Shown here: positions 37,019 to 38,239 of the stretch, in pieces
Numbering within the stretch: position 1 is the first letter of the stretch
Layout of the letters: every line of letters begins with the position of its first letter
Origin: Shigella phage JK32
Length of the DNA: 64,000 nucleotides
Reading direction: 5' to 3' (one strand)
Sequence record: MK962753.1
Made by a program: the position numbers and the translations under genes
Notes under the pieces: model-generated
The model's input: the letters and a program-made list of their open reading frames with translations, nothing else
Told to the model about the DNA's origin: nothing
The model's database searches: none

Positions 37019-38239
37019 TTATACTGCCATTTGAGCGGTGATCGCTGGATGGCTTTGATAGTTGTGAATTTTAAAGTCTTTCGGAGTCTTTGTCAATACC
37101 TCATCTAAAGACTTAAATTCCGGCAACTCAATTGTTGGTTTATCAAACGGAACACGGTTTAATTGTTCCATAACTTGATCAAAGTGGTTTTTGTAAATGT
37201 GAGTATCTCCACCAGAGAAAATCAGTTCTCCTACCTCAAGATCACACATTTTCGCTATGATGTGGGTTAAAAGTGCATAGCTGGCAACATTAAAGGGCAA
37301 GCCCAAAAAGCTGTCTACGCTTCTCTGAAACCACATACAAGACAGTTTACCTTCATTGACGTAGAATTGCACGAAAGGATGACATACACCTAACACAGCA
37401 TTATGTGTTCCTTGTACGTTCCATGAGTCAATAATGATCCGGCGATCCGTTGGATTGTTTTTAATTTGTTCAATCACGTTTTGTAACTGGTCTTCCCAAA
37501 TCTTCGGTCGATAGATATATTCTTCATCGTCTTTAGGGCTTGATGTGTCTACGTCCATATTAACAAAGATCGTGGTATCCGGTGCGAACATATCCCCACC
37601 CAGATAATCACTATCAAGCAGATAACCGAAATAACCATCATCTACCCATTCCTGGAATCCCCACAAGCAATATGCATCATTAACAAAATTAGATTGAGTC
37701 TTCCAGTGGTCTGCTACCAGAATATAATCAAACTCTTCATAACGCATACCACGCCAGATAGCACATAAACGGTCTTCTGTGTCATTGGTTGGCGTAAAGT
37801 CTTCTACCCACGGGTGCTTAAATGTATGTGTATATTTGCTCTTAACGCGCTTAATTTTGATTTCACCGTGTGGATGAATCGGTTTGCGTCGCCAAGCCAT
37901 ACCATACATATTGCCGACATTATAACCATTGAATCGCAAAGGATTCTTTTCTTTCATATCAAGACAGTTGCCGCGCCAAATGTCGAAGGCTTCTTCGTCA
38001 AACTTACCGCGTGTAATTTCCTGTAAGCGACGGCGGTCAAGTGATCCCTCCATAAACCATAGCAACTCGCCAATTACAGAGGCTGTAGCCATCTTTTTAG
38101 TGGTCAGTAAGGGGAAACCCTTGCTTAAATCGATTCGCATCTCTGCGCCGAATTTAGAGAGCGTACCTACCCCCGTGCGGTCTTCACGAGGCCAGCCATT
38201 ATCAAGAACATCACGCAACAGTTTCAAATATTCTTTCAT
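37019..38239 (-). CDS. td: thymidylate synthase with ~120-aa internal insertion
   Basis: N-terminal RTGTGT and C-terminal catalytic blocks conserved; 406 aa versus 286 aa in T4; insertion after the YG-x-WR block. Confidence 0.85.
   Translation of the reverse strand: [406 protein letters not shown]

What the first reader, a model, noticed from the sequence alone, without database searches (positions are those of the whole stretch)
37500..37880. Thymidylate synthase interrupted in-frame by a ~120-aa insertion of unknown nature
Td is 406 aa; flanking blocks align well to T4 Td and E. coli ThyA (RTGTGT, catalytic CHPF..[30 protein letters not shown]), but after the YG-x-WR block there is an inserted segment ([13 protein letters not shown] ... 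YIYRPKIWE) before [17 protein letters not shown]. There is no group I intron interrupting the ORF and the insert lacks intein junction residues. This looks like an acquired internal domain.
Basis: partly seen in the sequence, partly recalled or inferred. Interest (0 to 1): 0.55.

Follow-up and report, generated by a model that had tools for sequence, protein, structure and literature searches.

The report
Endonuclease-like relic domain inside phage thymidylate synthase
The thymidylate synthase of this RB49-like coliphage carries, in one surface loop, a 131-residue folded domain that appears to be the shrunken, acidic remnant of a homing-endonuclease-like phage protein inserted in frame without any intron or intein; larger copies sit at the same spot in other phages' enzymes.

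Summary
The td ORF (window 37019-38239, minus strand, 406 aa) is a complete ThyA-type thymidylate synthase. One block, residues 119-249 (window 37493-37885), separates the YGxxWR block from the DQL helix. It is neither a group I intron nor an intein.

The block folds on its own in prediction (AlphaFold2 pLDDT 89.7). It is homologous to the core module of a large family of small, basic phage proteins. Those proteins pair the module with NUMOD-like or AP2 DNA-binding domains and occupy homing-endonuclease positions, including group I introns (PHROG 2081).

Fuller copies of such proteins (190-245 aa) are embedded at the same site in thymidylate synthases of an E. coli jumbo phage, a Vibrio phage and metagenomic phages. 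A Tenacibaculum phage carries the module at a different site, so insertion happened more than once.

The Krischvirus copy has lost the flanking modules and several motifs and has become strongly acidic. It evolves about five times less constrained than the enzyme core (dN/dS 0.25 versus 0.04-0.05).

My best reading is a fossil of an in-frame invasion, now a tolerated or mildly useful surface domain on an active enzyme. I found no description of it in the searchable literature.

The parts
37019..38239 (-). td gene: 406-aa thymidylate synthase with an internal domain (the stop codon is 37019-37021)
   Evidence: ORF list. PF00303 E=1.6e-84. TIGR03284 scores 283 bits against a cut-off of 108. 58 phage records carry the same gene.
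37886..38239 (-). N-terminal part of the enzyme core (aa 1-118), ending in the [10 protein letters not shown] block
   Evidence: Aligns to E. coli ThyA 1-~100. dN/dS is 0.04. tblastn with Td aa 1-126 (this core plus the first 8 insert residues) is at least 99% identical in 52 phage records and 95-99% in 6 more.
37493..37885 (-). Inserted domain (aa 119-249). Net insertion is about 124 aa at the tip of the hairpin that corresponds to E. coli ThyA W101-I109.
   Evidence: No Pfam hit. Homologous inserts occur in other phage thymidylate synthases. AlphaFold2 on the insert alone gives pLDDT 89.7. dN/dS is 0.25.
37805..37885 (-). Basic outgoing arm of the insert (aa 119-145, [27 protein letters not shown]); includes beta strand 126-130
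   Evidence: DSSP of the whole-protein model. Net charge +6, pI 10.4.
37520..37804 (-). Globular, strongly acidic module (aa 146-240): three helices plus a beta hairpin. It is homologous to the core module of PHROG 2081/953/374-type proteins.
   Evidence: Profile A2 matches this stretch at 9.8e-30, with no other match in the window. Net charge -18, pI 4.05. Foldseek BFVD hits to free-standing phage proteins.
37727..37738 (-). Deletion scar and indel hot spot (aa 168-171, EEFD). Some Krischvirus genomes carry four extra codons (SEYN) immediately after D171. Fuller homologues have the 'RCY...Y..G' segment here.
   Evidence: Alignment of 8 Krischvirus Td proteins. This is the only segment with pLDDT below 50. 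Alignments A1 and A4.
37604..37618 (-). LDSDY, the local version of the family's most conserved motif (LDKD[Y])
   Evidence: The L and D are invariant or nearly invariant across the family. hhalign places this motif on the D74-H75 region of I-HmuI, but the match is not significant (E=0.42).
37493..37519 (-). Return strand (aa 241-249, YIYRPKIWE) that leads back into the enzyme. The 'RPKI' motif is shared by the insert-bearing synthases at this site.
   Evidence: DSSP strands 241-245 and 248-250. Alignment A1.
37019..37492 (-). C-terminal part of the enzyme core (aa 250-406), with catalytic Cys286 and the dUMP- and folate-binding residues
   Evidence: Aligns to E. coli ThyA 110-264. Invariant catalytic columns. 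dN/dS is 0.05 with the mosaic JSE sequence excluded.

Best explanation
**What it is.** Residues 119-249 of this Krischvirus (RB49-like) Td are a translated, independently folding domain. It sits at the tip of a surface beta-hairpin of the synthase's small domain.

**Origin (inferred).** It descends from a homing-endonuclease-like phage gene of the PHROG 2081/953/374 type. Those proteins consist of an uncharacterised N-terminal module followed by NUMOD-like or AP2 DNA-binding domains. The gene became inserted in frame into td, so the host protein tolerates it without RNA or protein splicing.

**State in other phages.** In some phages the embedded copy is still nearly complete and basic.

**State here.** In the Krischvirus lineage it has been whittled down.
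- It has lost the N-terminal beta module.
- It has lost the G-x-G-Y motif, the RCY segment, the helix after the beta hairpin and the C-terminal helix-turn-helix-like tail.
- Its globular part has changed from basic to strongly acidic.

It is therefore most likely no longer a DNA-binding or DNA-cutting unit. I read it as a fossil passenger domain. It is kept under moderate purifying selection because it has to stay folded and harmless in the middle of an essential enzyme. The enzyme itself should work as an ordinary ThyA-type thymidylate synthase.

**Shown versus inferred.**
- Shown: the boundaries, the homology network, the independent second insertion site in another phage, the predicted fold, the charge reversal and the relaxed constraint.
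- Inferred: the historical insertion by a homing-type event, the loss of nucleic-acid binding, and the retention of enzyme activity.
For: **Single-block insertion in an otherwise intact enzyme**
- Pfam and PDB matches fall in two stretches, and the catalytic residues are invariant.

**Homologous, longer inserts at exactly the same site**
- Asteriusvirus UE-S1 TS, 517 aa: tblastn E=4e-12.
- Vibrio phage D69 TS, 477 aa: tblastn E=2e-7.
- Eleven metagenomic TS clusters of 288-525 aa, one of them (288 aa) C-terminally truncated.

**The long inserts match PHROG 'HNH endonuclease' families**
- Family 2081 at E=4e-32, 953 at 7e-25 and 374 at 8e-21.
- PHROG 2081 proteins are encoded in loops of group I introns of Bastillevirinae DNA polymerase genes. 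InterPro recognises only DNA-binding domains in them (PMC11878797).

**Free-standing homologues**
- Proteins of 150-250 aa carry the module plus PF22083 (I-HmuI NUMOD-like) or AP2.
- They lie after a DNA polymerase 'part I' gene, between the primase and polymerase genes, and between two halves of nrdF.
- The module occurs in 1307 phage records.

**Direct links from the Krischvirus insert to non-TS proteins**
- phmmer E=5e-4 to P0012.
- Foldseek BFVD E=1.6e-5 to 1e-2, including proteins named 'HNH homing endonuclease' and 'Homing endonuclease'.

**Independent insertion**
- Tenacibaculum phage PTm5 TS carries the module upstream of the YGxQW block, not downstream of it.

**Degeneration in Krischvirus**
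- Modules are missing in alignments A1 and A4.
- The insert has pI 4.7 (net -11), and its globular part is net -18. Long inserts have pI 8.6-9.0 and free-standing homologues mostly pI 8.7-9.6.
- dN/dS is 0.25 in the insert and 0.04-0.05 in the cores.
- A 4-codon indel polymorphism lies at the scar.
- tblastn with Td aa 1-126 is at least 99% identical in 52 records and 95-99% in 6 more, whereas the insert is 89-96% identical in 58 records.

**Still a real domain**
- AlphaFold2 gives pLDDT 89.7 and pTM 0.82 for the insert alone, and pLDDT 86.7 and pTM 0.86 for the whole protein.
Against: - dN/dS of 0.25 is well below 1, and the insert is kept in all 58 genomes. Some present-day function cannot be excluded.
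- The charge reversal could itself be adaptive.
- No insert-less close relative of the Krischvirus td exists in the phage collection; the nearest is about 45-49% identical. The insertion event cannot be dated, and no 'empty site' can be shown.
- Enzyme activity and loss of DNA binding were not measured.
- dN/dS rests on only 8 sequences.
Confidence: 0.68

Rival explanations
1. Exapted functional domain. The remnant has been recruited for a new job. It might act as an acidic protein-interaction or DNA-mimic surface that docks Td to partners of the T4-type dNTP-synthesising or replication machinery, or it might regulate the enzyme.
For: - Purifying selection, with dN/dS 0.25.
- Present in all 58 Krischvirus records.
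- Confident compact fold, and a high pTM for the whole protein that suggests a fixed orientation.
- Strong and unusual acidification compared with all homologues.
Against: - Constraint is five to six times weaker than in the enzyme core.
- There is an indel polymorphism inside the domain.
- Family motifs have been lost progressively, and other lineages (P0013, P0006, P0003) show similar reduced, non-basic forms, which suggests generic decay.
- No partner or phenotype is known.
Confidence: 0.22
2. Still-active mobile element. The embedded domain still recognises or cuts insert-less td alleles and drives its own inheritance, as a splicing-independent homing element.
For: - Relatives sit in classic homing positions.
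- Between distant hosts, intact long inserts are more conserved than the enzyme cores that carry them: 68% versus 43%, and 63% versus 44%.
- td is a known target of homing endonucleases (T4 I-TevI; PMC2988022).
Against: For the window's copy:
- The DNA-binding tail, the N-terminal module and several motifs are missing.
- The globular part has net charge -18.
- No helix follows the beta hairpin.
- All known Krischvirus genomes already carry the insert, so no target remains.
Confidence: 0.04
3. Lineage-specific expansion of the thymidylate synthase small domain that is unrelated to mobile elements, like the 50-residue insert of Lactobacillus casei TS. Its similarity to endonuclease-like proteins would then be convergent or secondary.
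For: The small domain of this enzyme is a known hot spot for length variation. L. casei, S. aureus and E. faecalis TS are 315-321 aa, with all the extra length upstream of the DQ helix. Phage phiM7 TS has a somewhat longer hairpin at this very site.
Against: - There is statistically strong homology between the thymidylate synthase inserts and independent small proteins: 4e-32 to PHROG 2081 and 1.9e-20 from profile A2 to P0014.
- The modular architecture is the same in the embedded and free-standing forms.
- The same module sits at a second site in PTm5 TS.
Confidence: 0.04
4. Unrecognised intein or in-frame intron that is removed before the mature enzyme forms.
For: None beyond the fact that it is an in-frame block inside a conserved enzyme.
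Against: - No Hint or intein profile matches.
- There is no Cys/Ser/Thr at the upstream junction and no His-Asn plus Cys/Ser/Thr at the downstream junction (sequence).
- No Rfam family matches the region.
- There is protein-level homology and purifying selection on the block.
Confidence: 0.01

Closest known systems
Intron-encoded or free-standing phage proteins of PHROG 2081/953/374 ('HNH endonuclease'), e.g. those in group I introns of Bastillevirinae DNA polymerase genes (PMC11878797)
   Same: The core module is homologous (W..M..RCY / V..RW..F.NF..D / LDKD...YSP.TC.F). The long thymidylate synthase inserts share the whole architecture of these proteins.
   Different: - Those are separate genes with their own start and stop, are basic, and carry NUMOD-like or AP2 DNA-binding domains.
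- The window's copy is an internal segment of Td, is acidic, and lacks the DNA-binding tail and several motifs.
- Nuclease activity has not been demonstrated for this family in anything I could read.
T4 td group I intron with I-TevI (and thyA introns with I-BmoI)
   Same: A homing-endonuclease-type element resides inside a phage thymidylate synthase gene, next to highly conserved coding sequence.
   Different: - In T4 the endonuclease gene sits in a self-splicing intron and is not part of the enzyme, and the endonuclease is of the GIY-YIG type.
- In T4 the intron lies elsewhere in td, further downstream in the coding sequence (from memory, not tested).
- Here there is no intron, and the element is translated as part of Td.
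Inteins
   Same: Both are in-frame insertions of mobile-element origin inside essential nucleotide-metabolism or replication proteins.
   Different: There is no Hint splicing domain and there are no junction residues. The insert is expected to stay in the mature protein.
Aeromonas phage Aeh1 nrdA split by the HNH gene mobE (Friedrich et al. 2007, cited in PMC5374615)
   Same: A free-standing endonuclease-type gene lands inside the coding sequence of a T4-family nucleotide-metabolism enzyme that keeps working.
   Different: In Aeh1 the host gene is broken into two separately translated pieces. Here the reading frame runs through, giving one fused polypeptide.
Small-domain insert of Lactobacillus casei-type thymidylate synthases
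   Same: A lineage-specific extra segment in the variable small domain of ThyA, upstream of the DQ helix.
   Different: The sequence is unrelated, it is about 50 rather than about 124 residues, and it lies before the YGxQWR block (position from established structural literature, recalled rather than tested here). The Krischvirus insert lies after that block.
I-HmuI and PacI (His-Me finger / HNH nucleases)
   Same: - Free-standing relatives share I-HmuI's C-terminal NUMOD-like domain (1u3e hit at E=0.023).
- hhalign puts LD[K/S]D on I-HmuI V73-D74-H75-K76.
   Different: - No conserved histidine exists anywhere in the module.
- All of these similarities are below significance.
- The helix of a beta-beta-alpha motif is absent from the Krischvirus model.

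Membership tests
ThyA-type thymidylate synthase (PF00303 / TIGR03284) | Profile match above the curated cut-off | tested here: met
   PF00303 scores 283.6 bits against a cut-off of 24.3. TIGR03284 scores 283.1 bits against a cut-off of 108.35.
ThyA-type thymidylate synthase (PF00303 / TIGR03284) | Catalytic and substrate-binding residues (E. coli R21, E58, C146, H147, R126/R127, R166, S167, D169, N177, H207, Y209) | tested here: met
   Td R21, E58, C286, H287, R266/R267, R306, S307, D309, N317, H347 and Y349 are invariant columns in alignment A5. All of these except R266 (nearly invariant) and R267 are also invariant in A1.
ThyA-type thymidylate synthase (PF00303 / TIGR03284) | dUMP to dTMP activity with the insert in place | not testable with these tools
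   Needs thyA complementation or an enzyme assay.
Intein | Hint splicing domain | tested here: not met
   No Pfam family matches the insert at E up to 10, and no PDB sequence matches it.
Intein | Junction residues: Cys/Ser/Thr first, then His-Asn followed by Cys/Ser/Thr | tested here: not met
   The block begins KPIHPHGE and ends [10 protein letters not shown].
Group I intron | Ribozyme core detectable, and the reading frame interrupted | tested here: not met
   No Rfam match at E up to 1 in window 36800-38500. The ORF is continuous. There is protein-level homology and dN/dS is 0.25.
HNH / His-Me finger nuclease | Match to a curated HNH profile | tested here: not met
   No HNH Pfam or NCBIfam hit for the insert, the long inserts or the free-standing homologues.
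HNH / His-Me finger nuclease | Conserved general-base His and metal-binding Asn/Asp/His | tested here: not met
   The invariant and nearly invariant columns are W, W, F, L, D and V only. In the non-significant hhalign match, Ser (Lys in relatives) occupies the I-HmuI His75 position.
HNH / His-Me finger nuclease | Beta-beta-alpha-metal fold | tested here: inconclusive
PHROG 2081/953/374-type homing-endonuclease-like proteins | Homology of the core module | tested here: met
   - Direct matches of the Krischvirus insert are weak: PHROG E about 0.25, and P0012 at E=5e-4.
- BFVD Foldseek gives E=1.6e-5.
- Matches through the thymidylate synthase insert family are strong: 4e-32, 7e-25 and 8e-21, and profile A2 to P0014 at 1.9e-20.
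PHROG 2081/953/374-type homing-endonuclease-like proteins | C-terminal NUMOD-like, HTH or AP2 DNA-binding domain | tested here: not met
   - It is absent from the Krischvirus insert in alignment A4.
- It is present in free-standing homologues.
- In the long thymidylate synthase inserts the tail aligns with that region, but Pfam does not call it.
PHROG 2081/953/374-type homing-endonuclease-like proteins | Independent gene, basic protein | tested here: not met
   The block is internal to the td ORF. Its pI is 4.7, against 8.7-9.6 for most relatives.
Homing endonuclease (functional definition) | Site-specific cleavage of the insert-less allele and super-Mendelian inheritance | not testable with these tools
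   Only contextual evidence is available, and only for relatives.
L. casei-type TS small-domain insert | Insert located between the IWDEW block and the LGPVYG block | tested here: not met
   The Krischvirus insert follows YGMAWRR. The PTm5 TS insert, by contrast, does lie in that upstream position.

The most novel reading that the evidence does not exclude
The thymidylate synthase inserts represent a so-far undescribed life-style for homing-type elements. A complete endonuclease-like gene propagates as an in-frame graft into a permissive surface hairpin of an essential enzyme, so it needs neither an intron nor an intein. On this reading the long, basic, well-conserved copies (Asteriusvirus UE-S1, Vibrio phage D69, the metagenomic phages, and a second site in Tenacibaculum phage PTm5) are still active as TS-endonuclease fusion proteins that target insert-less td alleles. 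The module would be a new, histidine-less nuclease domain. The Krischvirus copy would be the end stage of the same homing cycle, and its td allele may itself have arrived by co-conversion with the element.
Probability: 0.2. Interest if true: 0.8.

Novelty: new variant of a known kind. Interest (0 to 1): 0.55.

Why it matters
Homing endonuclease genes are thought to survive inside essential genes by one of three routes. They hide in self-splicing introns, hide in inteins, or sit between genes.

A family of phage thymidylate synthases that simply carries the endonuclease-like protein as an extra surface domain would be a fourth, splicing-free solution. This window holds the most reduced member of that family.

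The series from complete to relic copies in one enzyme gives a natural record of how such an element decays or is domesticated. It also exposes an abundant phage module, present in more than 1300 phage records, that has no Pfam or NCBIfam model and whose biochemical activity is unknown.

There are practical consequences too:
- At least one such synthase is mis-annotated as 'HNH endonuclease'.
- The site is a ready-made permissive position for domain insertion in thymidylate synthase.

Tried and rejected
- **Word-indexed protein search with the insert alone:** no hit. The exhaustive search was needed instead.
- **Pfam, NCBIfam and PDB sequence searches of the insert and its relatives:** no informative family.
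- **Profile searches of the PDB:** these gave a spurious glutamate-receptor delta-1 match. I-HmuI was matched only through its C-terminal NUMOD-like domain.
- **hhalign of the module against I-HmuI:** it aligned the HNH motif in the expected register, but at E=0.42, so I do not claim HNH membership.
- **Structure searches:** Foldseek against the PDB found nothing. The AlphaFold-database library was unavailable.
- **Rfam:** it found no intron in the td region, and none around the Staphylococcus phage homologue that splits nrdF. Whether that copy is intron-encoded or free-standing is therefore open.
- **Locus search in viral contigs:** the broad alignments failed. With a narrow alignment it returned only already known thymidylate synthases. 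I could not find the module embedded in host proteins other than thymidylate synthase.
- **Third protein-database search:** it returned only short free-standing proteins.
- **Paralogues in the window:** no paralogue of the module exists elsewhere in the 64-kb window.
- **Base composition:** the insert does not differ from its flanks, so there is no sign of recent acquisition.
- **Model coordinates:** they were not available to scripts, so contacts between the insert and the enzyme core could not be measured.
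Full report
**1. The observation**

The window comes from an RB49-like T4 relative (genus Krischvirus). The td ORF matches 58 phage records at 90-98% nucleotide identity, and the best match is phage kvi at 97.6%. The gene lies in the usual T4-type block. nrdA is at 34707-36950 and td at 37019-38239. A small ORF overlaps the td start. frd is at 38574-39143 and has a DHFR Pfam hit.

The td ORF is 406 aa and uninterrupted. Pfam PF00303 and about 120 solved thymidylate synthases match it in two stretches, 1-~117 and 250-406. E. coli ThyA residue 110 falls on Td residue 250. 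NCBIfam's equivalog model TIGR03284 is passed with 283 bits against a cut-off of 108.

In multiple alignments all the extra length is one block between the [10 protein letters not shown] motif and [14 protein letters not shown]. This corresponds to E. coli ThyA about R107/H108. The block has 131 residues where E. coli has 7. The only slip is that 'RTGTGT' actually reads RTGVGT.

Every catalytic and substrate-binding residue of ThyA is conserved.

**2. What it is not**

- Rfam finds nothing in the td region at E up to 1.
- There is no Hint or intein profile match.
- The junctions (…[11 protein letters not shown]… and …[10 protein letters not shown]…) lack intein residues.
- Base composition does not differ from the flanks.

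**3. What it is**

The insert alone has no Pfam, NCBIfam or PDB sequence match. It gives only weak hits (E about 0.25) to two PHROG families labelled 'HNH endonuclease'.

*Other synthases carry the same insert.* A translated search of phage genomes and an exhaustive search of 1.84 billion protein representatives found its real relatives. They are other thymidylate synthases with longer inserts at exactly the same position:
- E. coli jumbo phage UE-S1 (Asteriusvirus), 517 aa, E=4e-12;
- Vibrio phage D69, 477 aa, E=2e-7, annotated as 'HNH endonuclease' but carrying a full synthase core;
- eleven metagenomic clusters of 288-525 aa, one of them (288 aa) C-terminally truncated.

*The long inserts match endonuclease-labelled families.* They match PHROG 2081, 953 and 374 at E=4e-32, 7e-25 and 8e-21. 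A profile built only from synthase inserts retrieves small free-standing proteins at E down to 1.9e-20.

*Architecture of the free-standing proteins.* They are 150-250 aa and consist of:
- an optional N-terminal beta module;
- a G-[VI]-G-[YI] motif;
- the core module (Y..W..M..RCY … V..RW..F.NF..D … LDKD…YSP.TC.F…N);
- a C-terminal I-HmuI NUMOD-like domain (PF22083) or an AP2 domain.

NCBI names some of them 'NUMOD1 domain-containing DNA-binding protein'. The module occurs in 1307 phage records.

*Genomic context of the relatives.* They lie where homing endonuclease genes lie:
- after 'DNA polymerase part I' in phage alia;
- between the primase and polymerase genes in Vibrio phage D415;
- between two halves of nrdF in a Staphylococcus phage.

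A 2025 survey reports PHROG 2081 proteins inside group I introns of Bastillevirinae DNA polymerase genes. In those proteins InterPro sees only DNA-binding domains (PMC11878797). The module therefore sits where a catalytic domain would be expected, but it is itself uncharacterised.

*Direct links from the Krischvirus insert to non-synthase proteins.* These exist but are modest: phmmer E=5e-4 to P0012, and Foldseek hits in BFVD at E=1.6e-5 and weaker. The BFVD hits include proteins named 'HNH homing endonuclease' and 'Homing endonuclease'.

**4. More than one insertion event**

Tenacibaculum phage PTm5 has a 527-aa synthase with the same module at a different place. It lies between IWRDW and GSVGAMYGVQW, which is upstream of the YGxQW block rather than downstream.

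One metagenomic synthase (P0011) has a very different core, 24-32% identical to the others. Even so, it has the module at the Krischvirus site, and the module is 30-47% identical.

Among the complete inserts, the module is more conserved than the enzyme core that carries it:
- D69 versus P0010: 68% versus 43%;
- UE-S1 versus P0002: 63% versus 44%.

In the reduced inserts the reverse holds. This comparison is rough, because I compared the best-conserved part of the insert with the whole core. It fits a picture of intact, selected copies alongside decaying ones.

**5. State of the copy in this window**

Compared with the long inserts and the free-standing proteins, the Krischvirus copy lacks several parts:
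- the N-terminal beta module;
- the GxGY motif;
- the RCY…Y..G segment;
- the conserved Asn-containing helix after the hairpin;
- the C-terminal tail.

AlphaFold2 still predicts a compact domain:
- Insert alone: pLDDT 89.7, pTM 0.82, with three helices and a hairpin.
- Whole protein: pLDDT 86.7, pTM 0.86.
- Strands 126-130 and 241-245 lead out of and back into the enzyme.

From this I infer, without having measured it, a two-stranded stalk that extends the native hairpin.

The only very low-confidence residues (168-171) coincide with the deletion scar. Immediately after D171, some Krischvirus genomes carry four extra codons.

The charge has reversed:
- Krischvirus insert: pI 4.7, net -11; its globular part (aa 146-240) is net -18.
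- Long inserts: pI 8.6-9.0.
- Free-standing homologues: mostly pI 8.7-9.6.

Among eight Krischvirus td genes, dN/dS is 0.25 in the insert and 0.04-0.05 in the two core segments. Across the collection, the insert is 89-96% identical in 58 records. tblastn with Td aa 1-126 (the N-terminal core plus the first 8 insert residues) is at least 99% identical in 52 records and 95-99% in 6 more.

The domain is therefore constrained, but much less than the enzyme. It is very unlikely to bind DNA.

**6. Is the module an HNH nuclease?**

This is not established.
- Foldseek against the PDB finds nothing.
- hhalign places LD[K/S]D…TxxF…N on I-HmuI V73-D74-H75-K76…W90…N96, the register expected for a degenerate HNH motif. 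The match has E=0.42.
- No histidine is conserved in the family.

I therefore call it 'homing-endonuclease-like' on the basis of architecture and genomic context. I do not file it as HNH.

**7. Explanation and rivals**

*Best explanation (confidence about 0.68).* An endonuclease-like gene of this family inserted in frame into a permissive hairpin of the synthase small domain. The site is flanked by two of the most conserved coding motifs of the gene, as is typical of homing targets. The copy in the Krischvirus lineage is a reduced, non-DNA-binding fossil riding on an active enzyme.

*Rivals.*
- Exaptation of the acidic domain for protein interactions: 0.22.
- A still-active mobile element: 0.04.
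- A small-domain expansion unrelated to mobile elements: 0.04.
- A cryptic intein or intron: 0.01.

**8. Novelty**

Thymidylate synthase genes invaded by intron-borne endonucleases are classic (PMC2988022). So are inteins and genes split by free-standing endonuclease genes (cited in PMC5374615).

I found no paper that mentions the RB49/Krischvirus Td insert, or endonuclease-like domains embedded in thymidylate synthase. The library does not contain the original RB49 genome paper.

I rate this a new variant of a known kind. The window's own copy is the least spectacular member, a relic. The family it points to is the interesting part.

Noticed in passing
window 39536-40804 (-): A 422-aa ORF just upstream of frd has three CapR-homology / treble-clef zinc-finger repeats (PF21817 E=1.3e-15; PF14311 E=2.7e-10). 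This domain type is known from homing-endonuclease-derived phage proteins, so the frd-td neighbourhood may hold a second mobile-element-like gene.
   Followed up: partly
L009 (phage JSE td), codons about 257-345: The JSE td gene is mosaic. Its N-terminal core and insert are like other Krischvirus genes. Part of the C-terminal core differs at many residues (e.g. LFFMRSNDLFLGNPFNV versus [17 protein letters not shown]), which suggests recombination with another td allele.
   Followed up: partly
L002:3638-5071 (Vibrio phage D69, VPHD69_0093): A 477-aa protein annotated 'HNH endonuclease' is in fact a full thymidylate-synthase-family enzyme (PF00303 E=1.9e-47) with a 193-aa endonuclease-like insert. 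The annotation is misleading.
   Followed up: yes
L007:2108-3691 (Tenacibaculum phage PTm5 TS): Besides carrying the module at a different site, this 527-aa synthase has a further insertion of about 55 aa in the C-terminal half, after the catalytic CH motif. Its nature was not examined.
   Followed up: no
L018:1012-3125 (Staphylococcus phage PSU6): The RNR small-subunit gene is in two pieces, with a 238-aa homologue of the module between them. Rfam detects no group I intron there, so it is unclear whether this is an intron or a gene split by a free-standing element.
   Followed up: partly
L003:2354-2950 (phage alia gp039) and L005:2354-2863 (Pectobacterium phage P7_060): Free-standing homologues sit immediately after a DNA polymerase gene; in phage alia the record's note calls it 'part I'. 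They carry a weak AP2-like C-terminal region (the Pfam AP2 hit in P7_060 is below the cut-off; alia gp039 has none) and no recognisable nuclease motif.
   Followed up: partly
window 38211-38239: The td start codon overlaps the end of the upstream 98-aa ORF (38211-38507) by 29 nt. The same overlap is annotated in the other Krischvirus genomes, which suggests translational coupling.
   Followed up: no
Td versus other T4-family Td proteins: The Krischvirus Td core is closer to the jumbo-phage UE-S1 enzyme (55%) and to E. coli ThyA (48%) than to T4 Td (about 38% over the N-terminal part). The td allele of this genus may therefore be a replacement rather than the ancestral T4-type gene.
   Followed up: partly
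Profiles of the module repeatedly hit the amino-terminal domain of glutamate receptor delta-1 (E=0.003-0.2) over 'RW..F..F.D…G.Q.F.D….LD'. I treated this as a chance resemblance.
   Followed up: no
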